Below are positions 14,103 through 47,462 of a stretch of DNA of 47,462 nt, in pieces. The stretch comes from Patescibacteria group bacterium (GTDB lineage: Bacteria > Patescibacteriota > Patescibacteriia > UBA11705 > DATKZF01). Location of the stretch: assembly GCA_049319825.1 (NCBI GenBank), contig JBMORT010000002.1:337230-384691 (forward strand), given 5' to 3'. Made by a program: the position numbers and the translations under genes. Numbering within the stretch: the stretch's first letter is position 1; each line of letters begins with the position of its first letter. The notes beneath the pieces are model-generated. The model was not told where the DNA came from and made no database searches. It saw nothing but the letters and a program-made list of their open reading frames with translations.

Positions 14103-14127
14103 ACGCGCACACTGGCGTAAAATCAAT

Positions 14128-14156
14128 AAACCTTTGGTCTGACCAAAGGTTTTTTA
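14128..14156. terminator. Bidirectional terminator
   Basis: AACCTTTGG-tctga-CCAAAGGTT followed by TTTTT. Lies between convergent genes. Confidence 0.7.
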
Positions 14157-14161
14157 GTTTA

Positions 14162-30363: not shown

Positions 30364-30424
30364 GGGGCACACGTATCATGGAACATTTCGTATTGATTTA
30401 TAATCCATGTCCCATGCGCCATGA

Positions 30425-30877: not shown

Positions 30878-30925
30878 AGATGATTTTTATGGTCGCGCTA
30901 TTATTATATGAATTTTTTTAAAAAT

Positions 30926-31168: not shown

Positions 31169-31195
31169 TCTTAATGTGCTTTAGAAGGGAAGGCT

Positions 31196-31352
31196 TGTGC
31201 CCAATTCCAACCTCGAAAGGCTAGAACTAGACAGCAATACATTTAAGTATTTACAAGCATTCGTCCCCCCTAAAGGGGGCTCTACGCCCCTCTTGGGCAC
31301 ATGTTCGGAATGAACTGGGTATTATAGTCTGTCCCGAATATTTGCCCAAGAG
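31196..31352. other. Three-segment mutually exclusive pairing element
   Basis: TGTGCCCAA (31196-31204) pairs with TTGGGCACA (31293-31301). CTCTTGGGCA (31290-31299) pairs with TGCCCAAGAG (31343-31352). CCCCC-taaa-GGGGG lies between, at 31266-31279. Confidence 0.45.
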
Positions 31353-31553
31353 AAACGCGGCCGATAAAATGAACAAACACTTTAATAGTGCATATTAGCA
31401 AAAAAGAATGATTTTGTCAAGTCGTTTTTTATTGTTGTTATTACTTTGTCTAATTTTAGGTAAAAAATGGTCAAAGCGATCACTAAAATTTTTGCGGCTT
31501 GGAAATAAAATAAAATGTGATGTATAATAAAAACGAGGAGGATTTTTTGATAT

Positions 31554-32606: not shown

Positions 32607-32607
32607 T

Positions 32608-33369
32608 ATGTTTATTGTATATAAGCTTTTTCAAATAATATCACCGTTGTCGCTGGCGTTGGTTTTGGAAATTATTTTTTTCTCCAAAACGCCGCTGGCA
32701 GTTTTATTGCCAGTCACATTATTGATTACCGCCTCAGCCGTCTGGCTTTATCATCGATTCAAATTCACTGCTGAATTCTTTAGCTTCCTGATCAGCCCGC
32801 TTGTCTTTGTGGCGGTCACCATTCTCTTCGCTTTGTTTATTGATAAAACATGGCTGTATCACCTGTATGCTGGTTTTGTGGCGATATTCTTGTTTGTTTA
32901 TTTGGGGCGCATGTTGGATTATAAATTTTATCCGACCAGATATCAGCCCTATTCCCTGGAAAATTTTTCCTGGTACATGGCGATGCTTTCCACGTTTTTA
33001 TTTTTTTCCTTTGCCTTTGGCTTAATAATTTTTTTAAAAATGAAATTGCTCTTCCTGGCGCTAATCGTGCTGGCGTTCAGCTTGTTGCTCTTGTATCAAA
33101 TATTTTGGATAAATAAAATTCAGTTCGCGGATAGTCATGTATTCATCGTGGCCATCGCCGTGGTGCTGGTCGAGCTGTTCGCGGCCATATATTATTTGCC
33201 GACCGGATTTTACGTCAACGCGTTTATTCTAACTGTCGCTTTTTATCTGATGACCGGTTTGGCGAGAGCGTTTTTATCAGGCAGCCTCGATAAAAAGAAA
33301 ATTATTAATTTTTTGGCCATCAGTGCCGTTTGCTTGGTCGCCATATTGGCCACGGCGCGATGGATATAA
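32608..33369 (+). CDS. Hypothetical polytopic membrane protein (253 aa)
   Basis: Starts 2 nt after the previous stop. About 7 hydrophobic helices. Confidence 0.7.
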   Translation: MFIVYKLFQIISPLSLALVLEIIFFSKTPLAVLLPVTLLITASAVWLYHRFKFTAEFFSFLISPLVFVAVTILFALFIDKTWLYHLYAGFVAIFLFVYLGRMLDYKFYPTRYQPYSLENFSWYMAMLSTFLFFSFAFGLIIFLKMKLLFLALIVLAFSLLLLYQIFWINKIQFADSHVFIVAIAVVLVELFAAIYYLPTGFYVNAFILTVAFYLMTGLARAFLSGSLDKKKIINFLAISAVCLVAILATARWI

Positions 33370-33371
33370 TT

Positions 33372-34514
33372 ATGAGCAATTTAGAAAAAAAGAAATTTAC
33401 CGTTTATCAAATAATAACAGTAATTTTAATCGCGGTATTTTGCGGCTTCTCTGCCGGATTAGTCGGCGAAATCTGGATCAGCGATTTTATAAAAAACGGC
33501 AAAGTGGAAAAAGAAAAAATAGAATCTTTGTCCGATCGGCTCGACGCGCTGACTCAAAAGCAAGAAAAAAGGCTAAAGGATATTTTAGCGGAAAAAGATT
33601 CGTCAATCAACCAGACTATCGATCAGATCAGGCCGACGATCGTCAGCTTTTACAAATTCAAACCGCAAACTGGCAACTGGAGCGATATTTTGTTGGATCA
33701 AGATATTACCGGTTTGGGAACGGTGCTGACTACCGATGGTTGGATCCTGACCGATAAGGCGGTATTGGCCGGAGACACCAATCAGATAGCGGTTTCTTTT
33801 GAAAAGAAAATTTATGCCGTCGTCAATTATGTCTGTGACAGCGCGACCACGGCATGTTTTGTGAAAATCGACGCCCAAGATTTGCCGGTCGTTAATTTAA
33901 CCTCACGGGAATTTATGACCAGCGGCCAAACGGTGCTGGCCGTTTCCGCGGATTTGATCTTTCCGACAAGCATCGAGTGTTTGTATTGCTCCGTGGCAAA
34001 GACCAGATCGGATTTAATTCGTTCATCGGAAAAATATTATCAATTCATAAAACTGATCGAACCGTTGAACGATAATTGGCTGGGAGCGCCGATCGTCAAT
34101 TTGGATGGTCAGCTGGTCGGCGTTTTAAGCTCGGATAACGTGGTGGTGGCGGTGGATAATATTCAGTCGATAATGAAACAGGCGATCTCTTCCGGCGCGA
34201 TCACCAGAAATTTTTTGGGCGTGTCATACATAGATTTAAGCGAAGCGGTCGGCTGGCAAAAATATGCCGATTATAAACAGGGAGCGCTGCTTTTTGGCGT
34301 TGATGGCTCGCCGGCGGTAATGTCCGCCAGCCCGGCGCAATTGGCCGGGCTGAAATCGGGCGACATTATTTTATCCATTGAAGACGAGTTGATAACGGAT
34401 AAGAGTTCATTAACCAAAATAATTCAGAGCTATAAAAGCGGGCAGGAGGTTAAAATAAAAATTATGCGTCAGGGACAGCCGCTTGAGGTGAACGCGGTAT
34501 TAACGGAAATGTAA
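33372..34514 (+). CDS. HtrA/DegP-like trypsin-fold plus PDZ protein lacking the catalytic triad
   Basis: N-terminal TM, trypsin-like blocks and a C-terminal PDZ (LAGLKSGDIILSIEDE...). Catalytic positions read TDKAV (for TNAHV), TTAC (for tDlA) and NWLGAP (for GNSGGP). Start taken at ATG 33372, after the upstream stop. Confidence 0.8.
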   Translation: MSNLEKKKFTVYQIITVILIAVFCGFSAGLVGEIWISDFIKNGKVEKEKIESLSDRLDALTQKQEKRLKDILAEKDSSINQTIDQIRPTIVSFYKFKPQTGNWSDILLDQDITGLGTVLTTDGWILTDKAVLAGDTNQIAVSFEKKIYAVVNYVCDSATTACFVKIDAQDLPVVNLTSREFMTSGQTVLAVSADLIFPTSIECLYCSVAKTRSDLIRSSEKYYQFIKLIEPLNDNWLGAPIVNLDGQLVGVLSSDNVVVAVDNIQSIMKQAISSGAITRNFLGVSYIDLSEAVGWQKYADYKQGALLFGVDGSPAVMSASPAQLAGLKSGDIILSIEDELITDKSSLTKIIQSYKSGQEVKIKIMRQGQPLEVNAVLTEM

Positions 34515-34536
34515 TTAATCTCGGCCGCCCGAGGCT

Positions 34537-35328
34537 ATGAGCAACAGATCAACAGCTAAAAACAAAAAAAACTATCTAAATTTGAAATTGTACGCCGCGC
34601 TGACTACGGTTATTTTAATTCTGGCCGTTGTTTTTTCACTTGTCTTTTTGACATTCAAATATTCGGCGCAGACCAGCGTTATTGTCGTGCCAAAGGGGAG
34701 CATCGAGCCAGATGCGGTGACCGCCGGATTGATATCCGATCGGCTGGCCAGCAATTTGGCGGAAGTCGTTTATACTTCGAGGTTTTTTTATCAAACAATG
34801 GATGCCGGCTACCAAGTGCCGATGGATTTATTCTCCAATGACGAAAAAATTAGGCGCCAGCAGTGGCAAGCGGCGGTCAGCGCCCGAGTCCGTCCGGAAA
34901 CCGGAATTTTGGATATTATCGTTTATCATAAAGACAGCCGCGTCGCGGGCGAATTGGCTAACGCCATCGCTTATTCGCTGACACTTCATGGCTCAGAATA
35001 CACCGGCCTTCAAAACACGGAGGTGAGGATTATCGACGCCGCGATCGTTTCGGAATTTCCGGTTAAGCCCAACATAATGATTGTTTTAGCCATCGGTTTA
35101 TTATTGGGATTAATCGTCAGTTTTTCCGTCTCCATTTTAATAAATGAAAAATCGGCATTACGATCGACGAAGCCGAAAATAAAGGAAGATCTTTTTGAAA
35201 AAGAGAACGTTTCCGAATCACTGGAAACAATCGCCGTTCAGCCGGCGCCGCCGGCGGCATCCAAGACGGAACCGATTTCAGATTTTCCGCCGGAAGTGAT
35301 CGAGACCATGCCGAAAAGTAATAAATGA
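34537..35328 (+). CDS. Wzz/chain-length-determinant-like protein
   Basis: Two TM helices flank a ~150-aa loop. The second TM is preceded by PVKPN, as in PCP/Wzz proteins. Ends in TGA. Confidence 0.55.
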   Translation: MSNRSTAKNKKNYLNLKLYAALTTVILILAVVFSLVFLTFKYSAQTSVIVVPKGSIEPDAVTAGLISDRLASNLAEVVYTSRFFYQTMDAGYQVPMDLFSNDEKIRRQQWQAAVSARVRPETGILDIIVYHKDSRVAGELANAIAYSLTLHGSEYTGLQNTEVRIIDAAIVSEFPVKPNIMIVLAIGLLLGLIVSFSVSILINEKSALRSTKPKIKEDLFEKENVSESLETIAVQPAPPAASKTEPISDFPPEVIETMPKSNK

Positions 35329-35449
35329 AATGTCCGCCAATGGCGGATCAGCCGCTGATTTTAAAAGCAAAATATCGAGTCCCGCTGAAGCGGGACATTT
35401 TTAAAATATAAAAAACAGCAGTAAGCTTGGCTGACCGCTGTTCGGTTTT

Positions 35450-36430
35450 TTATCTTCTTGGCGATGCCAGTTGACGAGCACGGATCATTTCTACCGGGCT
35501 GCGTCTTTGGCATTGCACGCTCAAATCATTCAGCTGGTATTGAAGGCTTCGCTGGTTTTGAGCCAGTCCGCCGATCATTCTGTAGATGTTTTCTTGAAAT
35601 TCGCTCAGCACCAGCGCAAACTGGCGGTTGTTTAGAAACGCGCCATAGAATTCCGGCGAGTTATTGGCATCGGGCGCGGTCAGGAAATTCAGCAGCCAAA
35701 TGCTCTGGAACATGCTCAGCGAGTAGAGCGGCCTTAGCCAGTCGCCGGAGAAGATCACCCCGGTAAAGTATTGCGCGGCCAGCTCCAGCGATTTGAACAG
35801 GGAAAACGATAGATAGCCGTTGCGTCTGGCCTTAAGGTAACGCTCAACTTTTATTTTCAGCGCCGGGCTCATGCCCTTGATCACCGCAGGGATCTGATTT
35901 AGGATTTCCTCCTTTACTCGCCAATCTGCTTGACTGTCGGGCGTAACCAGTCTGATGTATTCGCCGGGCTTGATTTCATCGGCAATTTCCCAGTTAAAGT
36001 CGCCATTGACCTGCTGAGGGTATTCGGTACCGTCCGTCGTATACACGTGGGCGAAAATGTCCGACTGGTCGTGCGAAACTAAAATGATTCGAGCTTGCGC
36101 GTTGACCAATTGAGCCATTGTTCTCGGAATCGGCGCGTAAAGTTTGGCTGATAACTCCCCGTGAATTCTAATGCGATAGGCCCAGAATTCATTGATCTCA
36201 CCGCCTTGAAGCCGTACTAGAACCTTCCAGCGAAACCCGGCTTCACCGATAGTCAGCCGAGCCAATCCATTGCCCGGCTTGATTTGGTATTCAACCATTA
36301 CATATTCCTGGAGTCGTGGCAGTTCTTCCGGAATCCAGGCTTCTTCCGGGTTGTTTAGCCCGTATTTTGGGCCGCAGCCGTACAGTAGCCAAGAAACGGC
36401 CAAACATCCCGCCCTCAAGTAACTGAGCAT
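35450..36430 (-). CDS. Hypothetical lipoprotein
   Basis: AAGGAGA lies 7 nt before the ATG at 36430 (the track ORF starts 30 nt earlier). Signal peptide with lipobox LLYGC. This is the first gene of the higher-GC block. Confidence 0.65.
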   Translation of the reverse strand: MLSYLRAGCLAVSWLLYGCGPKYGLNNPEEAWIPEELPRLQEYVMVEYQIKPGNGLARLTIGEAGFRWKVLVRLQGGEINEFWAYRIRIHGELSAKLYAPIPRTMAQLVNAQARIILVSHDQSDIFAHVYTTDGTEYPQQVNGDFNWEIADEIKPGEYIRLVTPDSQADWRVKEEILNQIPAVIKGMSPALKIKVERYLKARRNGYLSFSLFKSLELAAQYFTGVIFSGDWLRPLYSLSMFQSIWLLNFLTAPDANNSPEFYGAFLNNRQFALVLSEFQENIYRMIGGLAQNQRSLQYQLNDLSVQCQRRSPVEMIRARQLASPRR

Positions 36431-36507
36431 GTCCGGTCTCCTTTTTTTATCAATAAACATTAAATTTTATCATATTTTACTGTTTTTGTCAAAGCGATCG
36501 GCTATTA

Positions 36508-36536
36508 TTGACTTTTGATGAACATTCTGTTACGTT
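36508..36536 (+). promoter_or_regulatory. Candidate promoter TTGACT-17-TACGTT
   Basis: Hexamers at 36508-36513 and 36531-36536. ATGAACATT occurs twice just downstream. Confidence 0.4.
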
Positions 36537-36571
36537 GAAATGAACATTGAAAATAAAAAAAGGAGGAAATC

Positions 36572-38407
36572 ATGCCCAGATTTCGGTTCGATGACGAAGA
36601 CGGGTTGAAAAGGGCCGGTCAGCCGGAAGCAACGGTTGATCAAGGTCAACTAGAGCATGATACTCAACCGGAGATGAAAGCGGTCGTCGCAGACCCAAGC
36701 ACCACGTCCGAGACGGCGGTCGTTTTGGACGCACCGGCTCCGGCGGTCGTATCAGCGCTCGCCGCGATTGATCCTAATTCGTCTGAATTTCTCGATTTGG
36801 AAATCACTCAGGAAATTGTGGATAATTGGCAGGGCAATTGCCCGAAAGAAGATTGCGATGGGAAATTGATTTTATTGGCCGAAGGAAAAAAAGATCAGCC
36901 GGCAATTTACATTTGCAGCCAGCGGCGCTGTGGATTCAATGTTAAGATCGGTGAGAAAATGCACCAGGCATTTATCAAAAATGGCCAGGACTGTCCTGTC
37001 TGCGGACATCGAATGGTTAAATATGAAAATACCGAAGGTGAGAGCGGACATTATTGCTTGTATTGCGTAAGAAAAAAGTACGAAGCCATGATGACCGAAC
37101 AGGCTGCTGAAGTTAATCACCCGGGAAATAGTCACCCGGTCGATAAAACCGATAACGTTGAGGAGCCACCTGTTGATCGTGCGATGCCCGCAGCTCAGGA
37201 GCCGGAAGCGGCCCCAGCTATTACCGATATTTCGGATGAAGATGTGTTGGCCTCGATTGATGTGGGATCCTCCTCTCCCGGGCCGGGGATGACTCATGCC
37301 ACCGACGCGGAGGCGGCTGTCCCGAATATTGTCGTTGACGTCGGCCCGGCTGAACGAATGCCTTCGGGTAACAGCGGCGCAGCAGCGCCGGCACCGAGTA
37401 GCGCGGATGCCCCCGAATTGCTGGAAATCAAAAAAGCGCTGGAAGTGATGAAGGACATTCGTCAGGGACTGATTACCATGAAGCGTGACATGTCCAAAGG
37501 CATGTCTGTGGAAATCGATGCCAAGCTTGAAGCGGTTGAACAGCGGTTGCTCGGCATGATCAATAAAAAGGATGATAAATTGCGAGACCTGCAGCAGTCC
37601 TTTGATCAATTGATCCAACAGATGCACGAATTGGAGCAAAGACTGGCCGATGAAGCCGCTTTCTTTGCCAGAGAACCTTCGGATCAGCGCTCAGAAGCGG
37701 TGGTGCTGGGCGAAAGTCTGGCCCGATCTCACAAGCGTCATAGTTATTATTTGATGAGTTTGGCCGCTGGATTGACCTTTGTGATCGTGTGGCTTATTTT
37801 TGGCGCCTATTTGTCTGACAAGCGGTATAATGAGCTGGTGACCGAAACACGCAAAAATCGGGATTTGCCGACAACAACCGAGCCGGATTGGGACAAATTC
37901 TGGGGCGAGTGTTCGCAAAGCGCTAATTGCCGCAAATTGATTGATCAAACCGTTGGCCGATCGATTGACGCCAGCCGTATCGAGGCCAACATTCGTGCTC
38001 AATCGATCGCGGACATCGAACGCGAATGCGATGTCATGTCTCTTCTGTTTATTGACAATGATCGATTGAATTACGCGGCTTTGTCCAATCGGCTCAGCCA
38101 GCTCGAATCAAAAAATTGGTCCGAATGCTGTTTCTCGCCGGCGCCAACCGCCAGCCAATCCTGGTCCGCTGGCCAGTCCGAGGCGCCGGCACCCGTGTCC
38201 ATGCCTGTTTCTCGGCCGGAGAATCGGGCACATCCCCTGATCCGTCAACCGGATTCACCGCGAATTTCTTCGGGCAAAAAACCTGTGGTCATCAGTGGAA
38301 AAAAGCCGTTTGACGGTATTGTCAACGGTGTTCGGGTACGCTACAAGTGCGAAGGCCTGGGCTGTGATCAGCAAATGATCACTGTCAATCCGCCATCGCG
38401 CAAATAA
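36572..38407 (+). CDS. Bitopic membrane protein: two N-terminal zinc ribbons, coiled coil, one TM, Cys-containing C-terminal domain
   Basis: AAAGGAGGAAATC precedes the ATG. Contains CPKEDC...CSQRRC and CPVC...CLYC. Heptad region around residues 290-350. TM helix YYLMSLAAGLTFVIVWLIFGAYL. Confidence 0.75.
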   Translation: MPRFRFDDEDGLKRAGQPEATVDQGQLEHDTQPEMKAVVADPSTTSETAVVLDAPAPAVVSALAAIDPNSSEFLDLEITQEIVDNWQGNCPKEDCDGKLILLAEGKKDQPAIYICSQRRCGFNVKIGEKMHQAFIKNGQDCPVCGHRMVKYENTEGESGHYCLYCVRKKYEAMMTEQAAEVNHPGNSHPVDKTDNVEEPPVDRAMPAAQEPEAAPAITDISDEDVLASIDVGSSSPGPGMTHATDAEAAVPNIVVDVGPAERMPSGNSGAAAPAPSSADAPELLEIKKALEVMKDIRQGLITMKRDMSKGMSVEIDAKLEAVEQRLLGMINKKDDKLRDLQQSFDQLIQQMHELEQRLADEAAFFAREPSDQRSEAVVLGESLARSHKRHSYYLMSLAAGLTFVIVWLIFGAYLSDKRYNELVTETRKNRDLPTTTEPDWDKFWGECSQSANCRKLIDQTVGRSIDASRIEANIRAQSIADIERECDVMSLLFIDNDRLNYAALSNRLSQLESKNWSECCFSPAPTASQSWSAGQSEAPAPVSMPVSRPENRAHPLIRQPDSPRISSGKKPVVISGKKPFDGIVNGVRVRYKCEGLGCDQQMITVNPPSRK

Positions 38408-38435
38408 GGACTTTAATCAAATTAAGTCCTTTTTT
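38406..38435 (+). terminator. Rho-independent terminator
   Basis: AAGGACTT-taatcaaatt-AAGTCCTT followed by TTTT. Confidence 0.6.
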
Positions 38436-38504
38436 ATTGGATTAAAAAAAATTTGAAGCTAAAGACTGCGGCTGATCATTTTACTTCTGTCAGCTTCTTA
38501 ACTT

Positions 38505-38533
38505 TTGACTTTTTTGGTAATCTGTGCTATATT
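38505..38533 (+). promoter_or_regulatory. Promoter TTGACT-17-TATATT
   Basis: Hexamers at 38505-38510 and 38528-38533. Confidence 0.5.
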
Positions 38534-38567
38534 TTTATGTTAAACGTTCATTAAAAAGAGGAAAGGA

Positions 38568-39227
38568 ATGCAGATGACTGAAAATAAGTCAGTTGCTGAA
38601 ACGACGCCAACTCGTGGTTTTGATTTTGCCGGTCTTTTCGGAGATGAAAGAAACGACCAGGTGAATCCCCCGACTGAAGATGAAGCCGCGATTTTCATCA
38701 AAGAAGCGCGTCAGGCCAATACGCGAATCAATGAGCTGGAGGCGCGCCTGGAGAAATTGATCAAGTTTGTTCGGGATTATTTGCAGAATTTGACCCAAAA
38801 TGATTCTCATAAAGAGGGGAAAGGGGATGATGTTTCCAGGGAAATCACTGATCTTCGAGCGGTGCTGGACGCATTAAAATCCCAGCTCCAGTACCAAGAA
38901 ACGAAGTATGCGGAAGGCCTGAATCAGTCCACGCAGGCTGTTGTCGGGCTTCACGATACGCTGACAGTCAAGCTGGAGGCGATTGACGCGGCCATCGCTG
39001 AATTGCGGGCAAAAGGCGAAGAAAACGCCCAAACTCAGCGGATTCGTACCATTCTCGATGAAGAGCTGAGAAAGCTCACGGTGCCCACGCCTGCTCCTCC
39101 GCAGCCCGATCCCAAAGCCAAGGGTGGCGCGACAAACGGGAACGGAGTGTTTCTCTACGGCACCATGGCCATTCTTGCTTCGCTTCTTCTTTTGGCTGCG
39201 GTGTTGTGGCTGAAGGGTGGCATTTAG
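38568..39227 (+). CDS. Tail-anchored coiled-coil protein (219 aa)
   Basis: GAGG lies 6 nt before the ATG. Long helical heptad region, a Pro-rich linker, and a C-terminal TM helix (FLYGTMAILASLLLLAAVLWL). Confidence 0.7.
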   Translation: MQMTENKSVAETTPTRGFDFAGLFGDERNDQVNPPTEDEAAIFIKEARQANTRINELEARLEKLIKFVRDYLQNLTQNDSHKEGKGDDVSREITDLRAVLDALKSQLQYQETKYAEGLNQSTQAVVGLHDTLTVKLEAIDAAIAELRAKGEENAQTQRIRTILDEELRKLTVPTPAPPQPDPKAKGGATNGNGVFLYGTMAILASLLLLAAVLWLKGGI

Positions 39228-39256
39228 CGCGTTTTTCAAAGAAAAGCGCGCTTTTA
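39226..39256 (+). terminator. Rho-independent terminator
   Basis: AGCGCGTTTTTC...GAAAAGCGCGCT followed by TTTT. Confidence 0.55.
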
Positions 39257-39335
39257 TTATTTGATTAGAAAAATTTACAATGTTAGTTATATGATATTCA
39301 ACTTAAATTCGACATAATTTTAATGTTACTTCTTC

Positions 39336-39408
39336 CCAATTTCGGCTCGCGCCGACCTACTTTTTGTAACCCTTCGGCTACGCTCAGGGCAGGCCAAAAA
39401 GTAGGCAA
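39336..39408. repeat. 73-bp repeat, copy A (identical to 44811-44883)
   Basis: CCAATTTCGGCTCGCGCCGACCTACTTTTTGTAACCCTTCGGCTACGCTCAGGGCAGGCCAAAAAGTAGGCAA. Contains TCGGC-tcgc-GCCGA and a 12-bp stem, CCTACTTTTTGG-type, formed with CCAAAAAGTAGG. Confidence 0.9.
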
Positions 39409-39413
39409 AAAGT

Positions 39414-39484
39414 TTTGGGGGGCTTCAAATTCTTGTCGACGATAACGTAATAATATCGCGCCGTGGGCAATGAAGCCCCCCAAA
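39414..39484. repeat. Perfect 14-bp inverted repeat with a 43-nt spacer
   Basis: TTTGGGGGGCTTCA (39414-39427) and TGAAGCCCCCCAAA (39471-39484). Confidence 0.7.
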
Positions 39485-39607
39485 CCCCCAATGCTATAAA
39501 CGAACGATTGGTTCATAAAAAATCCCGAAATGTTTTTTTCAGTCTTTGAATAAAAAAATGATTCGTGATAATTTACGTAAATTTAGAGGTATTTTATACT
39601 TCGCGCA

Positions 39608-39636
39608 TTGACAAAAAAATCAAATTATGCTATATT
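39608..39636 (+). promoter_or_regulatory. Promoter TTGACA-17-TATATT, followed by a structured leader of ~150 nt
   Basis: Hexamers at 39608-39613 and 39631-39636. The leader has stems TAGGTAT/ATACCTA, AATTCGG/CCGAATT and TTATTGG/CCAATAA. Confidence 0.5.
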
Positions 39637-39791
39637 ACTTTGATATCATTAGGTATTTTCAGCATGGAGAATTATACCTATTTCAAACTTCTAATTCGGG
39701 GTAGGTTATTGGGGTGTTTTGGTCTAAAATAAGCCAATAATGTGTTCCGAATTGAGGAAACTGAACGTTTAACGTTTTAGGAGGGACGAAA

Positions 39792-40409
39792 ATGAGTGAA
39801 GGAAAAGTCAGTGCGGGATCTGTTTTTTCTATCGTTACCGTGATCATGATGGTCGCGGTACTGGTAGTCGTGTTGGTCATCGCGTTCAAGGGCGACGGCC
39901 AGCCCCAGCCCGCGCCGGCTTCGACCGTCGCGGCTACGTCGTCTACGGCAACGCCGAGCGGCATCGGGATTTCCGACCTTAACGCGCTGGGTTCAAGTAT
40001 GAACCAGCGCATGGACGGCTTTGACGGCCGGCTCGGCGGGGTCGAGCGGGAAGTCGGCGAGGTCAAGCAAGGCCTTGTCGATGTCCGCAATGACCTCAAG
40101 GAAATGCCGGAGGTCATGCGGCAAATGCTGGTCGAGAGCGGTGGCCGCGGCATCCCCATGGGGTGCAATGGTCTGTCCAACTGCGGACGTTCTTGTCCGG
40201 ACGGCACCACCGGCTACCGAGTTGCGGACACCTTGCCGGACGGAAGGCGGGTGTATTACATCAAGTGCGACAAGGTGAGAACCAGGCGTGCTGCGCCGCC
40301 GGCGGCCCAGCCATCAGCTGAGGGCGCGACCCGTCACGTCAAGGAGACCTGGGCGTACCCGGTTCCCGGCGGCGGCTGGAGCGGGTACGAGACGCGATCC
40401 GTTCAGTAG
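39792..40409 (+). CDS. N-terminally anchored membrane protein with a coiled-coil segment and a Cys-containing C-domain
   Basis: TAGGAGGGACGAAA precedes the ATG. TM helix VFSIVTVIMMVAVLVVVLVIAF. GC-rich with GAC/GGC codon style. Confidence 0.7.
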   Translation: MSEGKVSAGSVFSIVTVIMMVAVLVVVLVIAFKGDGQPQPAPASTVAATSSTATPSGIGISDLNALGSSMNQRMDGFDGRLGGVEREVGEVKQGLVDVRNDLKEMPEVMRQMLVESGGRGIPMGCNGLSNCGRSCPDGTTGYRVADTLPDGRRVYYIKCDKVRTRRAAPPAAQPSAEGATRHVKETWAYPVPGGGWSGYETRSVQ

Positions 40410-40475
40410 TTGACCAAGACAAGAAGAAGGGAAGGAGGAAGCGGCAAGATACGGACAACTCTGTATTTTGCCTTT

Positions 40476-40516
40476 TGCACCGTTTATGCTTCAGAAAATG
40501 AAGCATGCGCGGTGCA
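40476..40516 (+). other. Strong nested intercistronic hairpin
   Basis: TGCACCG-ttt-ATGCTTCA-gaaaa-TGAAGCAT-gcg-CGGTGCA. No T-run follows. Confidence 0.5.
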
Positions 40517-40562
40517 GAAGAAACTGCAATAAACCATAACCGATTTAAGGGAGGAAATAATC

Positions 40563-41111
40563 ATGTCCAGCACGTCGTTCAAGGTGGTTGCGTTGGTCAC
40601 TTGTGTTTCATTTTTCTTCGTCGCCTGCGGGAGTTCGTCCAGTACGACGCGCAGGTCCAGCGCCAGCGCCGGGTACAACGGAAACGTGACGCTGGACCCG
40701 GTTCAGCAGGATCTGCGCGAGTGCGAGGCGCGCATTATGAGCGGCCTTGCCAATGGGCAGATGACCAGACTCAATTCCGGTCGAATCTGCAGGAACGCCG
40801 CCGGCACCCCGCACGTACAGCTCCGGAAGGAAGAGTACGTGGAAGGGAACGGACCGGTAGTTCGAGAGTGGCGGTCAGAAAACCTCCAGCCCGTGCCGTT
40901 CCCGTCGCCTTCGTCCTCATTTCAGGAGGAGGAGCAGATCGAGGACGATTCCAGCGTCTGGGATTGGCTGGGGCCGGTCCTGATCGCGACGGCGGTTCTT
41001 TCAACTACGGCCGCGCTCATCTGGGCGGCCGAAACCTGCCGTCTGTCGCCGTGCGTGGAGTACCACCGCGGCGTATCTCAGCAGAATGGTCTCACCGCAT
41101 TCCACTTTTAG
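40563..41111 (+). CDS. Lipoprotein with an additional C-terminal TM helix
   Basis: AGGGAGGAAATAATC precedes the ATG. Lipobox FFVAC/GSSSS. C-terminal helix LGPVLIATAVLSTTAALIWAA. Confidence 0.7.
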   Translation: MSSTSFKVVALVTCVSFFFVACGSSSSTTRRSSASAGYNGNVTLDPVQQDLRECEARIMSGLANGQMTRLNSGRICRNAAGTPHVQLRKEEYVEGNGPVVREWRSENLQPVPFPSPSSSFQEEEQIEDDSSVWDWLGPVLIATAVLSTTAALIWAAETCRLSPCVEYHRGVSQQNGLTAFHF

Positions 41112-41254
41112 TTCTTTTTTCCCCAATCGCCACGGCAATTGGGGTCTTAATCGAAGCTCATCAGCGAAAGCTAGTGATTTTCGACTAAGGAGCGAATTCA
41201 ACGAACAAACCGAACAGCACCAGTTAACAACACCAGTTTAGGAGGAAGAACATC

Positions 41255-44164
<2,910 letters not shown>

Positions 44165-44178
44165 GCGCTACCTAACTT

Positions 44179-44216
44179 GAGCTCTTGATCAACGATCAGG
44201 GGCTCTTTTATTTTTT
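44179..44216 (+). terminator. Rho-independent terminator closing the 39792-44164 operon
   Basis: GAGCTCTTGATC-aac-GATCAGGGGCTC followed by TTTTATTTTTT. Confidence 0.65.
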
Positions 44217-44275
44217 GAAAAGGGGACTACGAAACTACGAAAAGTTTCGAATTCTACGAAAACATGCCATATACA

Positions 44276-44304
44276 TTGACAAAATCGATAAAATATGATA
44301 TAAT
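44276..44304 (+). promoter_or_regulatory. Consensus promoter TTGACA-17-TATAAT, preceded by three CTACGAAA direct repeats
   Basis: Hexamers at 44276-44281 and 44299-44304. CTACGAAA at 44227, 44235 and 44254. Confidence 0.55.
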
Positions 44305-44336
44305 TATTTGATAAATCCAAACCAAGGAGAGTTGAA

Positions 44337-44714
44337 ATGACTCGTTTTTTTGCAGTTTTGGCGGCCTTTTTTAGCCTTCAGGGATGTGTTATCGACTATC
44401 AGGAAACGGCCAAAAGGGAAGAGGCCGGATCTATCGTCAATGATCCGATGCCCGAGGACCCGGGCCTGATTAAGCCGCGGGTCAATCTGGCCGACGCCCT
44501 CAACCGGGCAATCGACGAGGATCCGGTGGTGGTGGCGGATATCAAGCGATGCAAAAAGCTTAATATTCCGCCCAAACATTACCTCCCGTTCAAGGAGACG
44601 GGCAACCTCTGCGTGGCCGATAGGGATGGCCAAAAGGAGCTCAAAATTCATCCTGGACACATCGGCCGTATCAGGGACGGCCTTGAGCGCAAACTGGCTG
44701 GGAAAATGCCTTAA
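44337..44714 (+). CDS. Small lipoprotein (125 aa)
   Basis: AAGGAGAG precedes the ATG. Lipobox FSLQGC. Confidence 0.7.
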   Translation: MTRFFAVLAAFFSLQGCVIDYQETAKREEAGSIVNDPMPEDPGLIKPRVNLADALNRAIDEDPVVVADIKRCKKLNIPPKHYLPFKETGNLCVADRDGQKELKIHPGHIGRIRDGLERKLAGKMP

Positions 44715-44810
44715 ATTGGCGTTTTTTCGGCCATTTCCGCAGCTTTCGAAGCACTTCGAAGGCTGTTTTTATTATAAAATAGACTTTAATGCTTGTGTAA
44801 ATATTATTTT

Positions 44811-44883
44811 CCAATTTCGGCTCGCGCCGACCTACTTTTTGTAACCCTTCGGCTACGCTCAGGGCAGGCCAAAAAGTAGGCAA
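44811..44883. repeat. 73-bp repeat, copy B (identical to 39336-39408)
   Basis: Base-for-base identical by eye, in the same orientation. Confidence 0.9.
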
Positions 44884-44933
44884 CCTGTCATCGCTTATTT
44901 ATAATATTTTTGTAAAGTATTTACCATTATTTC

Positions 44934-44958
44934 GTCTTCATTATTGAAGACATTTTTT
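44934..44958 (+). terminator. Rho-independent terminator
   Basis: GTCTTCA-ttat-TGAAGAC followed by ATTTTTT. Confidence 0.6.
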
Positions 44959-45017
44959 GTTCAAATTTATACAAAAAATAGGCGTTTGACGCGTATTGAA
45001 AATTATGGCCGAAAAAC

Positions 45018-45046
45018 TTGACAAAATAAGTGTTTTTTGCTAAGGT
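45018..45046 (+). promoter_or_regulatory. Candidate promoter TTGACA-17-TAAGGT
   Basis: Hexamers at 45018-45023 and 45041-45046. Confidence 0.4.
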
Positions 45047-45207
45047 AAGGAGTCAAAATTATTCTGGGATGATTGTGCCTTGTTAATAAAAAACTGCCTG
45101 AAAACGGTCTGAAAAAAATTTTTTGGATGGTTTTCAGCCAGCATTTTGCTGGCGCTCGGTTCGTTGACAACCACCCTTTTCAACAAGGGAATAAAAAGGA
45201 GAGAAAA

Positions 45208-47462
45208 ATGAAGAAGAAGAACGAAAGGCGTCTGGTCAACTCGCTTTGCGGACTGATTTTCATTTTCGGCTGGGGGATTTTCGGCTGCTCCGACAAGAAT
45301 CAATGTACTTTCAGCGATGAATGCGGCGCGGGCGAGGCCTGCGTCAATCACCATTGTGTGACCGGAAGCAGCGTCTCGCACGAGACGCCTGATGTGCCGG
45401 CCAGCTCGGATAGCCCGAGCGGCGGAGGAAATTCTGATACGACCAATCCTCCGCCCAGCACCAATCCGCCTCCGGCGGCTTGTACGCCGACCGGCATCGA
45501 AAAGTGCGACGGGCTCGACAATGACTGTGATGGTCTGGTCGATGAAGACGTACTCAACGACTGCGGATCCTGCGGGCCAGTGCCTGCGGAGATCTGCAAT
45601 GGCGAAGACGACGACTGCGACGGAGACGTCGATGAAGGACTTCGAAACGATTGCGGCCACTGCGGGCCGATTCCGCCTGAAGAGTGCGGCAACAAGCTCG
45701 ACGATGACTGCGACGGCGATATCGACGAAGGCTGTGAATGCAAAATCGTCGGTGAAACCGAGGTCTGTGAGATCGGAGATCTTCTGGGCCAGTGCAAGTT
45801 TGGTGAGCGTGTCTGCACGCATGACTACAACTGGAGCCATTGCATGCAGGTTGTTTTCCCGGAACCGGAAATCTGCAACGACTGGGATGACGACTGCGAT
45901 GGACAGATTGATGAAGAGTTGATCAACAACTGCGGCCAATGCGGTTTGCCGCCGGCCGAAATCTGCGACGGCTACGACAACGATTGTGACGGTGACATCG
46001 ATGAAGGCTGCGAATGCCTTATCGGTCAGCATCGCCTGTGCGGCACCAATATCGGCCTTTGTCAGCAGGGTATTGAAACCTGCGTCAGCTACGGCAGTGG
46101 TGTCGGTCACTGGTCGGATTGTGTCGGCGCCATCGAGCCGGATGTTGAAATCTGCGATGGTCGCGACAACAACTGCGACAGCGTCATCGACAACGGCTGC
46201 GCCTGCACCATCGGCGAGACCCGCTCCTGCGGGATCGATATCGGTCAGTGCTCGCGCGGTATTCAAACATGCGTCGATAACGGCGCTGGCCTGGGTACCT
46301 GGAGCGACTGCGCCGGATCATTTGTCGGCCCGGACGTGGAAATCTGCGACGGGCAGGACAATAACTGCGACGGCCATATCGACGAAGATTTGCTCAACGC
46401 CTGCGGGACGTGCGGCCAGGCGCCGGACGAAATCTGCGACGGCGAAGACAATGACTGCGACAGCGCCATCGATGAGGGCTGCGATTGCACCGTCGGCTGG
46501 AGCCGTGAGTGCGGTTCTGACCTTGGTGAGTGCGTCATCGGGACCCAGAATTGCTACGACGACGGGAACGGACTGGGCATCTGGGGTACCTGCGAAGGCG
46601 CCTTTGTCGGTCCGAATATGGAAATTTGCGACGGTTTGGACAATGACTGCGATGGTGACGCCGACGAAGCGTTACTAAACATGTGCGGCCAGTGCGGCGT
46701 GGTCCCTGCGGAGATCTGCGACGGCGTTGATAACGACTGCGACGGCGGGATCGACGAGGACTGCGACTGCACGATCGGGCAGGCCAAAACCTGCGGCACC
46801 GATATGGGGCAGTGCGAGTTCGGTATCCAGATCTGCTATGATCTGGGCAATCATATGGGCTACTGGGGCGATTGCGAAGAGCCCTTTGTCGGTCCGAGCG
46901 TTGAAGTCTGCGACGGCGCGGACAATGACTGCGACGGCGGGATCGACGAGGGGTGCGACTGCACGATCGGGATCATTCGCGTCTGCGGATCGACCATGGG
47001 CGTGTGTGAACTCGGTACCCAGGAATGCCTGGACAATGGTTATGGCATCGGTTATTGGGGCGAATGTCTCAATGACACGGAGCCGAGCGTAGAGATCTGC
47101 GACGGAGCGGACAACAACTGCGACGGCGCGATCGATGAAGGCTGCACGTGTACTATCGGTCAGTTCATCGGCTGCGGCTCTGATTTGGGCGAATGCGTGC
47201 GCGGCACGCAGGAATGCCTGGATTTGGGTAACGGTACGGGCTACTGGTCCGATTGCGGCGGTTCGTTTGTCGGTCCGATGACCGAGACCTGCAATGGTCT
47301 GGATGACGATTGCGACGGCGATGCCGACGAGGAGTTGCTCAACGCGTGCGGAACTTGCGGGCCGGTGCCCGCGGAGCTCTGCGACGGCGTTGACAACGAT
47401 TGCGACGGCGACGTCGACGAGAACTGCCAGTGCACGATCGGCCAGACCGAGTCCTGCGGGAC
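45208..47462 (+). CDS. Giant cysteine-rich repeat lipoprotein (more than 751 codons, open at the window end); absent from the ORF track
   Basis: AAAAGGAGAGAAAA precedes ATG 45208. I translated this frame by hand to 47460 and found no stop. Sequence MKKKNERRLVNSLCGLIFIFGWGIFGC/SDK (lipobox), then a Pro-rich linker, then at least 14 CDG.D[ND][ND]CD[GS]..DE motifs. These alternate with C.C.IG..R.CG...G.C..G.Q.C modules and LLN.CG.CG..P.E modules. Confidence 0.88.
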   Translation, partial: MKKKNERRLVNSLCGLIFIFGWGIFGCSDKNQCTFSDECGAGEACVNHHCVTGSSVSHETPDVPASSDSPSGGGNSDTTNPPPSTNPPPAACTPTGIEKCDGLDNDCDGLVDEDVLNDCGSCGPVPAEICNGEDDDCDGDVDEGLRNDCGHCGPIPPEECGNKLDDDCDGDIDEGCECKIVGETEVCEIGDLLGQCKFGERVCTHDYNWSHCMQVVFPEPEICNDWDDDCDGQIDEELINNCGQCGLPPAEICDGYDNDCDGDIDEGCECLIGQHRLCGTNIGLCQQGIETCVSYGSGVGHWSDCVGAIEPDVEICDGRDNNCDSVIDNGCACTIGETRSCGIDIGQCSRGIQTCVDNGAGLGTWSDCAGSFVGPDVEICDGQDNNCDGHIDEDLLNACGTCGQAPDEICDGEDNDCDSAIDEGCDCTVGWSRECGSDLGECVIGTQNCYDDGNGLGIWGTCEGAFVGPNMEICDGLDNDCDGDADEALLNMCGQCGVVPAEICDGVDNDCDGGIDEDCDCTIGQAKTCGTDMGQCEFGIQICYDLGNHMGYWGDCEEPFVGPSVEVCDGADNDCDGGIDEGCDCTIGIIRVCGSTMGVCELGTQECLDNGYGIGYWGECLNDTEPSVEICDGADNNCDGAIDEGCTCTIGQFIGCGSDLGECVRGTQECLDLGNGTGYWSDCGGSFVGPMTETCNGLDDDCDGDADEELLNACGTCGPVPAELCDGVDNDCDGDVDENCQCTIGQTESCG

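What the first reader, a model, noticed from the sequence alone, without database searches (positions are those of the whole stretch)
35450..47462. Uncharacterised GC-rich envelope-protein island occupying the last 12 kb
Seen in the sequence:
- At about 35.4 kb, coding composition and codon choice switch from GAT/AAA/ATT-rich to GAC/GGC/TGC/CCG-rich. The shift is strongest between 39.8-44.2 kb and from 45.2 kb on.
- Intergenic regions stay AT-rich and carry host-style TTGACA-17-TATAAT promoters and hairpin/T-run terminators.
- All nine genes have AGGAGG-type ribosome binding sites.
- All nine products look envelope-targeted: lipobox lipoproteins at 36430, 40563, 44337 and 45208, single-TM coiled-coil proteins at 36572, 38568 and 39792, and the 969-aa repeat protein at 41255 with a signal/anchor-type N-terminus. 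The two giant cysteine-rich repeat proteins are 41255 and the 45208 lipoprotein.
- I recognise no enzyme, ATPase, integrase, transposase or known secretion component.

Inference: a horizontally acquired or fast-evolving cell-surface module. Membrane-anchored coiled-coil scaffolds would display metal- or calcium-binding disulfide-rich repeats. That would fit attachment to a host cell or a mineral surface in an episymbiotic small-genome bacterium. I cannot match this gene set to any described system.
Basis: partly seen in the sequence, partly recalled or inferred. Interest (0 to 1): 0.8.

Follow-up and report, generated by a model that had tools for sequence, protein, structure and literature searches.

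The report
Acquired GC-rich MopE-repeat surface protein genes
The last 12 kb is not one mystery island: three lineage-specific membrane-protein genes of ordinary composition sit next to GC-rich, probably horizontally acquired genes for cysteine- and aspartate-rich "MopE-related" surface repeat proteins, a widespread protein kind whose function is unknown.

Summary
Partly confirmed. A real shift in composition and codon use exists, but it begins at about 39.8 kb, not at 35.4 kb.

- **35.4-39.2 kb.** The genes at 35450(-), 36572 and 38568 use the same codons as the 27 housekeeping genes to their left. The 611-aa protein (36572) has no relative among 1.84 billion representative proteins.
- **39.8 kb onward.** The genes at 39792, 40563, 41255, 44337 and 45208 exceed every left-hand gene in codon bias. 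GC3 is 0.63-0.78 against about 0.50.
- **The two giant proteins.** Both match Pfam PF11617 ("putative metal-binding motif") strongly, and the 969-aa one has more than 7,000 relatives, some of which sources name "MopE-related protein".
- **GC3 controls.** In three genomes such genes match their flanks. In a Candidatus Uhrbacteria contig they carry the same GC3 excess as here. This favours horizontal acquisition.
- **Same genome.** AT-rich intergenic DNA, strong sigma-70-like promoters, GGAG-type ribosome binding sites and a shared 74-nt hairpin element argue that all of it lies in one genome.
- **Envelope targeting.** Four lipoboxes and several membrane segments are real. However, the two largest coiled-coil proteins are predicted to face the cytoplasm, so the "display scaffold" idea is not supported.

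No mobility, enzyme, phage or defence genes were found. Verdict: new members of a known kind. Large cysteine-rich exported proteins have already been described in Candidate Phyla Radiation (CPR) bacteria. Interest is modest.

The parts
35450..36430 (-). Lipoprotein gene (326 aa from the ATG at 36430). No family match. Native composition.
   Evidence: Lipobox CLAVSWLLYGC. A GGAG ribosome binding site precedes the ATG at 36430, and the promoter's -10 box ends at 36464, so the upstream ATG at 36460 is unlikely to be used. GC3 0.60, codon bias 0.37, inside the left-hand range. No Pfam, NCBIfam, PHROG, PADLOC or PDB hit. The AlphaFold model is unusable, pLDDT 36.
36464..36492 (-). Promoter-like site for the 35450(-) gene (TTGACA-17-TAAAAT with TG).
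   Evidence: It shares 26 of 30 nt, in inverted orientation, with the promoter at 44276-44305 (pair I2).
36572..38407 (+). 611-aa ORFan. N-terminal part with CxxC pairs (zinc-ribbon-like), coiled coil at about 300-390, one membrane segment at 394-412, and a C-terminal part of about 200 aa with cysteines.
   Evidence: Only itself was found in the word-index search and in the full HMMER search of 1.84 billion representatives. Only sub-threshold zinc-finger and coiled-coil Pfam hits. Native codon use, bias 0.22. Membrane segment.
38505..38533 (+). Promoter-like site for the 38568 gene.
   Evidence: 10/12 match with TG.
38568..39227 (+). 219-aa tail-anchored coiled-coil protein (membrane segment at 194-212). 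No cysteines.
   Evidence: Only weak coiled-coil-type hits (Syntaxin, Use1, SMC, JetC), all far below cut-off. Codon bias 0.41.
39226..39252 (+). Terminator-like hairpin with T-run after the 38568 gene.
   Evidence: 12-bp stem.
39333..39408 (+). Copy 1 of the 74-76-nt hairpin element with the 25-nt core CCTTCGGCTACGCTCAGGGCAGGCC.
   Evidence: The Logan contigs L001 and L002 break inside it.
39608..39636 (+). Promoter-like site for the 39792-40563-41255 unit.
   Evidence: 11/12 match with TG.
39792..40409 (+). 205-aa protein with an N-terminal signal-anchor and 4 cysteines. GC-rich.
   Evidence: Membrane segment at 14-32. GC3 0.75, codon bias 0.57. No family hit.
40563..41111 (+). 182-aa lipoprotein with a second hydrophobic segment near its C-terminus. 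GC-rich.
   Evidence: Lipobox VTCVSFFFVAC. Hydrophobic segment at 138-156. GC3 0.76.
41255..44164 (+). 969-aa exported acidic cysteine-rich repeat protein. It has a signal or anchor sequence, 8 MopE-type units of about 45 aa (residues 141-634), six of them followed by a CG-x-G-x-C...CP-x-DC linker, then 3 CGNG units of 52 aa (659-810) and a unique C-terminal domain (811-969).
   Evidence: PF11617 E 3e-89 with 8 stretches. More than 7,000 relatives. 96 Cys; 201 Asp+Glu against 19 Lys+Arg; 4 Cys per unit. The PDB match is limited to residues 2-49 of MopE 2VOV. AlphaFold model of residues 141-304: pLDDT 85, no regular secondary structure.
44179..44205 (+). Terminator-like hairpin after the 41255 gene.
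44276..44304 (+). Consensus promoter (TTGACA-17-TATAAT with TG) for the 44337 gene.
   Evidence: 12/12 match.
44337..44714 (+). 125-aa lipoprotein of intermediate composition.
   Evidence: Lipobox VLAAFFSLQGC. GC3 0.63, codon bias 0.50. No family hit.
44739..44766 (+). Terminator-like hairpin after the 44337 gene.
44808..44883 (+). Copy 2 of the 74-76-nt hairpin element.
   Evidence: The Logan contig L003 ends inside it.
45208..47462 (+). Lipoprotein of more than 751 aa that runs off the window end. Half-MopE motifs (E-x-CDG-x-DNDCDG-x-IDEGC) alternate with C-x-C...CG...G-x-C...G-x-Q-x-C modules.
   Evidence: PF11617 E 5e-51 with 10 stretches. Lipobox IFIFGWGIFGC. 92 Cys. GC3 0.72. Repeat layout.

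Best explanation
The region is a mosaic, not one system.

1. **35.4-39.2 kb: native genes.** These are three lineage-specific genes: a lipoprotein, a 611-aa single-pass protein with a zinc-ribbon-like, coiled-coil N-terminal part predicted to be cytoplasmic, and a tail-anchored coiled-coil protein. Each has its own promoter, and their functions are unknown.

2. **39.8-44.2 kb and from 45.2 kb: acquired genes.** Two transcription units, with a small lipoprotein gene between them, were most likely acquired horizontally from a GC-richer lineage. They now run from host-type promoters and ribosome binding sites. Their main products are two members of the widespread PF11617 / "MopE-related" class.

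3. **How the giant proteins probably work (inferred).**
   - They are exported by Sec. The 45208 product is lipid-anchored through Lgt; the 41255 product is held by, or cleaved from, its N-terminal hydrophobic segment.
   - Outside the cell, each unit of about 45 aa is locked by two disulfides.
   - Its two acidic loops (DxDxDG and DG-x-DNDCDG-xx-DEG) bind Ca2+. Together the units form a stiff, extended, very acidic stalk.
   - The stalk presents the non-repeat C-terminal domain for attachment to another cell or to a surface.

The two 74-nt hairpin elements are small interspersed repeats in the intergenic DNA. They are not attachment sites of a mobile element.
For: **Shown**
- Composition, GC3, codon choice and codon bias separate the genes from 39792 on from both the left-hand genes and the 35.4-39.2 kb genes.
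- The GC3 excess is not a property of the family. In three genomes MopE-type genes match their flanks: 0.96 vs 0.94, 0.61 vs 0.62, 0.81 vs 0.80. In a Ca. Uhrbacteria contig two adjacent ones have GC3 0.82-0.91 against 0.43-0.55 for their neighbours. In a fifth contig they are GC3-poorer than some of their flanking genes.
- The non-repeat genes 39792 and 40563 share the shift, so repeat homogenisation alone cannot explain it.
- Family membership: PF11617 E 3e-89 and 5e-51; 7,064 hits, named "MopE-related" or "putative metal-binding motif-containing protein" in Myxococcota, Thermodesulfobacteriota, Pseudomonadota and Ca. Uhrbacteria.
- Export signals and lipoboxes, with Lgt in the window.
- Each unit has 4 Cys and 11-16 acidic residues.
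- The AlphaFold model is confident but has no regular secondary structure, as expected for small modules stabilised by disulfides or metal. Its best PDB neighbour is the Ca-binding type-3 repeat region of thrombospondin-1, but the match is not significant (E 0.26).
- Separate transcription units.
- Same genome: AT-rich intergenic DNA and GC-rich ORFs are contiguous in independently assembled Logan contigs. The promoters at 36464-36492 and 44276-44305 share 26 of 30 nt. The 74-nt element is 99% identical on both sides of the block.
Against: - No donor was identified. The best relatives share only about 35% identity, and only over the repeat region.
- No integrase, transposase or tRNA-linked junction is present.
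- Intergenic DNA inside and around the GC-rich units is host-like, which is unusual for recently transferred DNA.
- Four-fold codon preferences (CCG, GCC, GGC) already resemble those of the host.
- Ca2+ binding, disulfide formation, surface location and adhesion are all inferred.
- The fold match to thrombospondin is not significant.
- The homology search for the five small proteins failed its own control, so their ORFan status is shown only for the 611-aa protein.
- The host taxon is unknown.
Confidence: 0.6

Rival explanations
1. One co-functional envelope module. All eight genes would act together, with membrane-anchored coiled-coil proteins displaying the cysteine-rich repeat proteins on the surface.
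For: - The genes are adjacent.
- Every product has a membrane segment or a lipobox, against 0 of 27 left-hand proteins with a lipobox.
- The 35450(-) and 44337 genes have near-identical promoters, 26 of 30 nt, which hints at co-regulation.
Against: - There are two composition classes and at least six separate promoter-terminator units.
- The 36572 and 38568 coiled coils lie on the N-terminal side of a late or terminal membrane segment with no signal peptide, so they are predicted to be cytoplasmic.
- No relatives exist with which to test conserved linkage.
- MopE-type genes in five other loci have unrelated neighbours, and none of the window's small proteins matches the two loci tested by tblastn, L005 and L006.
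Confidence: 0.12
2. Native, long-resident genes. Their high GC3 would come from selection or biased gene conversion acting on cysteine-, aspartate- and glycine-rich repeat genes, not from transfer.
For: - Promoters, ribosome binding sites and intergenic DNA are host-type.
- Four-fold codon preferences resemble the host's.
- No mobility genes are present.
Against: - The non-repeat genes 39792 and 40563 share the shift.
- Two-fold codon families flip against host preference.
- MopE-type genes match their flanks in three other genomes, so the family has no built-in GC3 excess.
Confidence: 0.13
3. Assembly chimera. The GC-rich segments would come from another organism and were joined through the 74-nt repeat, whose 25-nt core occurs in many bacteria.
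For: - The repeat flanks the highest-GC block exactly.
- All three Logan contigs break inside the repeat copies.
- The 25-nt core occurs in at least 120 metagenome stretches.
Against: - The full 74 nt, including the AT-rich stem, is 99% identical in both copies.
- AT-rich, host-style intergenic DNA is contiguous with the GC-rich ORFs within single Logan contigs.
- One promoter sequence is shared across the supposed junction.
- The ribosome binding site style is the same throughout.
- A 76-nt repeat is easily spanned by ordinary reads.
Confidence: 0.05
4. Copper handling, as with MopE of Methylococcus. The repeat proteins would bind or scavenge copper or another transition metal at the cell surface rather than acting as adhesins.
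For: - The Pfam family is named Cu-binding_MopE.
- The only PDB sequence match is MopE, 2VOV.
Against: - The match covers only residues 2-49 of MopE.
- The Cu(I) ligands are two histidines and a kynurenine (PMC3423442 abstract). In the MopE/CorA structures they lie in the beta-sheet body shared with CorA, and the Ca2+ site is taken to be structural (PMC3912023).
- That body has no counterpart here.
Confidence: 0.1

Closest known systems
PF11617 / "MopE-related protein" / "putative metal-binding motif-containing protein" (large repeat proteins of Myxococcota, Thermodesulfobacteriota, Pseudomonadota and others)
   Same: The same repeated motif of about 45 aa with 4 Cys and two acidic loops, scoring far above the Pfam cut-off. 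Large size, export signal, tandem arrays. About 35% identity over the repeat region to thousands of proteins.
   Different: The N-terminal part, the CGNG units and the C-terminal domain (811-969) of the 41255 product have no match among the top 120 relatives. The linker module after six of the units recurs in only 11 of the 119 other relatives. Here the genes are compositional outliers in a low-GC genome.
Hypothetical protein COV06_02280 of Candidatus Uhrbacteria (P0075, GCA_002774875.1)
   Same: A lipoprotein-type N-terminus, MopE repeats and a unique C-terminal domain. It lies next to a second MopE-type gene. Both are strongly GC3-elevated, 0.82-0.91 against 0.43-0.55 for their neighbours. 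The host is a CPR genome.
   Different: Only about 34% identity, confined to the repeats. The neighbouring genes differ. No hairpin element with the 25-nt core is present.
Large cysteine-rich extracellular proteins of CPR Peribacteria (Anantharaman et al. 2016, PMC4736985)
   Same: [quoted passage not shown] The authors propose that they mediate attachment, possibly to other cells, in genomes that also invest in rhamnose synthesis and carry several Lgt copies. The window also encodes RmlA, RmlD and Lgt.
   Different: That genome has 58.5% GC, so no comparable GC anomaly was reported. The taxon of this window is not established.
MopE / CorA surface copper-binding proteins of methanotrophs (PDB 2VOV)
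   Same: The N-terminal 48 residues of MopE* carry one copy of the motif. MopE is secreted to the medium and its relative CorA is on the cell surface.
   Different: The copper-binding beta-sheet body is absent here. MopE has one motif copy, not an array.
Thrombospondin type-3 repeats (Ca2+-binding, disulfide-locked "wire")
   Same: By eye, both have short disulfide-locked units rich in DxDxDG-type acidic loops and lack regular secondary structure. It is the best Foldseek neighbour of the model.
   Different: The match is not significant (E 0.26, TM 0.17). Pfam reported no other family for either protein at E <= 0.01. This is an analogy of mechanism only.

Membership tests
PF11617-containing "MopE-related" repeat proteins | Motif match above the Pfam gathering score, in tandem copies | tested here: met
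   41255: 293 bits, E 3e-89, 8 stretches. 45208: 171 bits, E 5e-51, 10 stretches. The cut-off is 27 bits.
PF11617-containing "MopE-related" repeat proteins | Many full-length relatives sharing the repeat architecture | tested here: met
   7,064 proteins at E <= 1e-5. The best scores 741 bits. Some are named "MopE-related" by NCBI.
PF11617-containing "MopE-related" repeat proteins | Export signal | tested here: met
   An N-terminal hydrophobic segment in 41255 and a lipobox in 45208. These are pattern-based predictions only.
MopE/CorA copper-binding proteins | Beta-sheet body carrying the Cu(I) site (two His plus kynurenine) | tested here: not met
   Only residues 2-49 of 2VOV align. The Cu ligands are named in the PMC3423442 abstract. 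The metal sites lie in the beta-sheet body shared with CorA (PMC3912023).
Thrombospondin type-3 Ca-binding repeats | Significant sequence or fold match | tested here: inconclusive
   2RHP is the best Foldseek hit, but E is 0.26 and TM 0.17. Pfam reported no family other than PF11617 at E <= 0.01.
Myxococcus cysteine-rich repeat (TIGR02232 / PF13948) | HMM match to the CGNG-x-x-E-x-GE-x-CD units | tested here: not met
   Not reported by Pfam or NCBIfam at E <= 0.01. The resemblance of residues 659-810 is by eye only.
Classical genomic island / integrative element | Integrase, recombinase or transposase | tested here: not met
   No such family in Pfam, NCBIfam or PHROGs.
Classical genomic island / integrative element | Insertion next to the 3' end of a tRNA or tmRNA gene | tested here: not met
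   The tmRNA gene is at 29975-30363 on the minus strand, 5 kb away, with its 3' end pointing away from the region. tRNA-Asp is at 27331.
Classical genomic island / integrative element | Flanking direct repeats and deviant composition | tested here: met
   76-nt direct repeats flank 39409-44807, and the composition is deviant. However, the deviant composition continues beyond the second repeat, and the repeat is a hairpin element with a widely distributed core.
S-layer / known adhesin or secretion operon | SLH, S-layer, autotransporter, sortase-signal or secretion-system families | tested here: not met
   None in Pfam or NCBIfam.
Phage, plasmid or defence cargo | Match to phage, plasmid or defence protein families or records | tested here: not met
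   PHROGs gave none. PADLOC gave only weak coiled-coil noise. Two proteins found no relative in viral contigs. tblastn against plasmids and phages found nothing.

The most novel reading that the evidence does not exclude
Low-GC, small-genome (CPR-type) bacteria may repeatedly capture GC-rich MopE-type acidic double-disulfide lipoprotein genes from GC-rich bacteria, possibly their own hosts, and place them under native promoters as attachment organs. That would make these cassettes a marker of who attaches to whom. Separately, the tail-anchored coiled-coil protein (38568) and the zinc-ribbon coiled-coil ORFan (36572) could belong to an undescribed membrane-proximal cytoplasmic apparatus.
Probability: 0.12. 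Interest if true: 0.6.

Novelty: new member of a known kind. Interest (0 to 1): 0.3.

Why it matters
If the acquisition reading holds, this is a second example, after a Ca. Uhrbacteria contig, of a low-GC genome carrying strongly GC3-elevated MopE-type surface lipoprotein genes under native expression signals. That would be a concrete lead on how organisms with reduced genomes obtain attachment proteins.

The PF11617 class itself is very large (more than 7,000 relatives in one search), and I found no published functional study of the repeat motif itself. A simple Ca2+/disulfide test on one unit would therefore inform thousands of annotations, and could correct the misleading "Cu-binding" label.

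Otherwise the region is ordinary: lineage-specific membrane proteins next to repeat-rich surface proteins, as already described for CPR genomes.

Tried and rejected
- **Exact-protein look-ups.** The 969-aa protein is not on record as a called gene there. The others lie only on three Logan contigs of one run (SRR32167788), which break at the 74-nt repeats.
- **Homology for the 611-aa protein.** Only the protein itself was found, in both searches.
- **One concatenated query of the five small proteins.** It returned nothing, not even the proteins themselves, although they are in the collection. The internal control failed, so I treat this result as void.
- **Genome-collection scan with the neighbouring HtrA gene, for taxonomy and synteny.** It found only an unrelated hit at 24% identity.
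- **90%-identity cluster look-ups for 20 window proteins.** No full-length relative turned up at that level, so no taxon name was obtained.
- **Other library searches.** PHROGs, PADLOC, viral contigs, plasmids, phages and PDB sequence searches found nothing for the small proteins.
- **AlphaFold on the 35450(-) lipoprotein without an alignment.** pLDDT was 36, which is unusable.
- **Rfam on the long intergenic regions and on metagenome copies of the hairpin core.** No family covers it.
- **Idea that the 25-nt-core hairpin travels with MopE genes.** Rejected: 0 of 120 metagenome loci carrying the core have MopE motifs.
- **Idea that the core always sits in a hairpin.** Only 21 of 97 distinct copies have a flanking stem of at least 6 bp, against about 10% in shuffled pairings.
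- **Idea that the island is tied to the tmRNA gene.** Rejected on distance and orientation.
- **Literature.** Searches for the run accession, DUF5656 and translated repeat words found nothing.

Full report

Partly. In 1-kb windows GC rises to 0.60-0.65 between 40 and 44 kb and to 0.53-0.61 from 45 kb, against 0.39-0.50 over most of the window. The tetranucleotide distance from the 1-35 kb mean is 0.05-0.064 in those stretches. Everywhere else it is 0.013-0.03, including 35-39 kb at 0.019-0.028, which is no higher than the native stretches at 14-16 kb and 24-27 kb.

Per-gene GC3:

| Gene | GC3 |
|---|---|
| 27 left-hand genes | about 0.41-0.64 |
| 35450(-) | 0.60 |
| 36572 | 0.55 |
| 38568 | 0.55 |
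| 39792 | 0.75 |
| 40563 | 0.76 |
| 41255 | 0.78 |
| 44337 | 0.63 |
| 45208 | 0.72 |

Synonymous codon choice tells the same story. The left-hand genes and the three genes at 35.4-39.2 kb prefer GAT (68% and 64%), GAA (71% and 70%), AAT (68% and 65%) and AAA (76% and 61%). In the genes from 39792 on these preferences are reversed or, in the small 44337 gene, weakened.

Karlin codon bias against the left-hand set is 0.20-0.45 for the 27 left-hand genes taken one at a time. It is 0.22, 0.37 and 0.41 for 36572, 35450(-) and 38568. It is 0.46-0.57 for all five genes from 39792 on, above every left-hand gene.

So the switch is real, affects silent sites, and starts at about 39.8 kb, not at 35.4 kb.

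**2. Expression signals and gene count**

- Intergenic DNA is AT-rich: 0.27-0.36 GC around the units and 0.43-0.45 inside the 39792-41255 unit.
- Promoter-like sites are enriched, 20 against 7.8 +/- 2.5 expected. The best lie just upstream of genes: 44276 (12/12), 39608 and 36492(-) (11/12), and 38505 (10/12).
- Strong terminator-like hairpins lie at 35379 (bidirectional), 39226, 44179 and 44739.
- This gives at least six transcription units: 35450(-); 36572; 38568; 39792-40563-41255; 44337; 45208 onward.
- Every start has a GGAG-type ribosome binding site.
- For the minus-strand gene the real start is the ATG at 36430. The upstream ATG at 36460 lies at the predicted transcription start and has no ribosome binding site.
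- I count eight genes, not nine.

**3. The products**

- *Lipoboxes.* A PROSITE-style lipobox is present in four products: 35450(-), 40563, 44337 and 45208. None of the 27 left-hand proteins has one. The window encodes Lgt.
- *Other export signals.* The 39792 product has an N-terminal signal-anchor. The 41255 product has a hydrophobic N-terminus but no lipobox.
- *The 611-aa 36572 product.* It has no signal peptide. About 390 residues precede its only strong membrane segment (394-412). They include CxxC pairs with sub-threshold zinc-finger hits and a coiled-coil stretch.
- *The 38568 product.* It is tail-anchored, with its membrane segment at 194-212 of 219 residues.
- *Inference.* Most of these two proteins, coiled coils included, is cytoplasmic. 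This undercuts the idea that they display the repeat proteins on the surface.

**4. What the giant proteins are**

Both match Pfam PF11617 ("putative metal-binding motif", Cu-binding_MopE) far above its cut-off: E 3e-89 with 8 stretches and E 5e-51 with 10 stretches.

The 969-aa protein has 7,064 relatives at E <= 1e-5 among the candidates scored. Identity is about 35% over about half its length. Sources name some of them "MopE-related protein" or "putative metal-binding motif-containing protein", from Myxococcota, Thermodesulfobacteriota, Pseudomonadota and Candidatus Uhrbacteria.

Architecture of the 969-aa protein:
- a signal or anchor sequence;
- eight units of about 45 aa, each with 4 Cys and 11-16 acidic residues;
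- a CG-x-G-x-C...CP-x-DC linker after six of those units;
- three CGNG units of 52 aa;
- a unique C-terminal domain of about 160 aa.

The N-terminal part, the CGNG units and the C-terminal domain match none of the top 120 relatives. In total the protein has 96 Cys and 201 Asp+Glu against 19 Lys+Arg.

The 45208 lipoprotein alternates the second half of the motif with other cysteine modules, and it runs off the window end.

The only solved structure with sequence similarity is MopE of Methylococcus (2VOV), and the match covers only its residues 2-49. The Cu(I) ligands of MopE are two histidines and a kynurenine (PMC3423442 abstract). The metal sites lie in the beta-sheet body shared with CorA, and the Ca2+ site is regarded as structural (PMC3912023). 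The family name therefore says nothing about copper here.

An AlphaFold model of residues 141-304, built with a 47-row alignment of repeat segments, is confident (pLDDT 85) and has no regular secondary structure. Its best PDB neighbour is the Ca-binding type-3 repeat region of thrombospondin-1, but the match is not significant (E 0.26).

I therefore infer, and have not shown, Ca2+-loaded, disulfide-locked units forming an extended acidic stalk.

**5. Horizontal acquisition or not?**

The key control is whether MopE-type genes carry a built-in GC3 excess. They do not.

| Locus | MopE-type gene GC3 | Flanking genes GC3 |
|---|---|---|
| L128 | 0.96 | 0.94 |
| L129 (Thermodesulfobacteriota) | 0.61 | 0.62 |
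| L130 | 0.81 | 0.80 |
| L006, Ca. Uhrbacteria (two adjacent genes) | 0.82 and 0.91 | 0.43-0.55 |
| L005 | 0.50-0.53 | 0.56-0.74 |

One of the two Uhrbacteria genes encodes a lipoprotein with the same overall plan as here.

In the window the non-repeat genes 39792 and 40563 share the shift, so homogenisation among repeats cannot be the whole story.

Against transfer:
- no donor was found, since identity never exceeds about 35-40% and is confined to the repeats;
- there are no mobility genes;
- the intergenic DNA is host-like;
- the four-fold codon preferences are similar to the host's.

I rate acquisition from a GC-richer lineage, followed by domestication, as the most likely account, but it is not proven.

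**6. Chimera?**

The source is an NCBI assembly with a 384,691-bp contig. An independent Logan assembly of run SRR32167788 gives three contigs:

| Logan contig | Window span | Note |
|---|---|---|
| L001 | 29976-39365 | crosses the 35.4 kb "boundary" without a break |
| L002 | 39379-41786 | |
| L003 | 42253-44840 | |

The breaks fall inside the two copies of the 74-76-nt repeat and inside the repetitive gene, as expected for a short-k assembler.

Arguments for one genome:
- Within L002 and L003, AT-rich host-style intergenic DNA is contiguous with GC-rich ORFs.
- The repeat copies are 99% identical over their full length, including an AT-rich stem.
- The promoters at 36464-36492 and 44276-44305 share 26 of 30 nt.

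**7. The small proteins and the ORFans**

The 611-aa protein has no relative at E <= 0.001 among 1.84 billion representative proteins. For the other five small proteins my single concatenated search failed its own control: it did not return the proteins themselves. Their ORFan status therefore rests only on negative Pfam, NCBIfam, PHROG, PADLOC, PDB, phage and plasmid results.

The organism is poorly sampled. All 20 window proteins looked up, housekeeping ones included, have no full-length relative at 90% identity, and a genome-collection scan found no close relative. Its taxon is not established.

Several features agree with what was described for CPR Peribacteria: RmlA and RmlD, Lgt, a PyrB-PyrI fusion, DUF5656, and large cysteine-rich exported proteins. 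That paper proposes such proteins mediate attachment (PMC4736985). This is a lead, not a test.

**8. The 74-nt repeat**

It consists of a small hairpin followed by a 10-bp stem that encloses a 25-nt core. Only two copies exist in the 47 kb, and both lie in this region.

Their flanks differ widely and their median GC is 0.61. Some copies form tandem 24-nt arrays, and some sit inside a larger composite palindromic element.

No Rfam family covers it. It is not associated with MopE genes elsewhere, 0 of 120 loci. I treat it as an interspersed element that happens to bracket the block, not as an attachment site.

**9. Verdict**

Acquired surface repeat proteins: yes. A single module with coiled-coil display scaffolds: no. 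CPR episymbiont host: untested.
- The giant proteins are new members of a known, very large class whose function is unknown. Comparable proteins have already been noted in CPR genomes.
- Interest is modest. The most useful follow-ups are read-level validation, whole-genome placement, and a Ca2+/disulfide test on one repeat unit.

Noticed in passing
window 39371-39395 and 44846-44870; loci L008-L127: The 25-nt core CCTTCGGCTACGCTCAGGGCAGGCC of the 74-nt repeat is identical in at least 120 metagenome stretches with unrelated flanks (median GC 0.61). Some copies form tandem 24-nt arrays (L061, L081, L082). Others sit inside a composite palindromic element of about 110 nt (for example L011, L013, L022, L045). 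No Rfam family covers it and I found no paper on it.
   Followed up: partly
window 39417-39490: Directly after repeat copy 1 lies a second inverted repeat, GGGGGGCTTCA ... TGAAGCCCCCC. Its 11-bp arms are about 50 nt apart. It is absent after copy 2.
   Followed up: no
window 36463-36492 and 44276-44305: The promoters of the 35450(-) and 44337 lipoprotein genes share 26 of 30 nt, spacer included, although they lie in different composition classes. This may indicate common regulation.
   Followed up: no
window 29975-30363 (tmRNA, minus strand): The Logan contig L001 starts at window base 29976, one base inside the 3' end of the tmRNA gene (29975). This could reflect strain variation to the left of that point, where the IF3 gene and an unannotated 233-aa ORF (27566-28267) lie.
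   Followed up: no
window 13677-15697: A second, milder GC-elevated patch (GC 0.54-0.57, GC3 0.62-0.64). It holds a PyrB-PyrI fusion gene (14162-15697, minus strand) and a proline-rich 141-aa ORF with no family match.
   Followed up: no
window 23816-26896: A 1026-aa alanine-rich protein with no Pfam match, GC 0.52. It contains a 60-nt tandem duplication at 26129-26248.
   Followed up: no
L006 1-4132 (Ca. Uhrbacteria, GCA_002774875.1 PCYM01000003.1): Two adjacent MopE-type genes with GC3 0.82-0.91 lie within about 4 kb of a contig end, in a genome whose other genes have GC3 0.43-0.55. This is the same anomaly as in the window.
   Followed up: partly
L005 4905-14671: In this ENA contig two MopE-type genes are interleaved with PEGA-domain genes and have lower GC3 (0.50-0.53) than most flanking genes (0.56-0.74).
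   Followed up: no
tool behaviour: A concatenated 1057-aa query to the word-index homology search returned no hit at all, not even the five constituent proteins, which are representatives in the collection. Negative results from such chimeric queries should not be trusted.
   Followed up: yes
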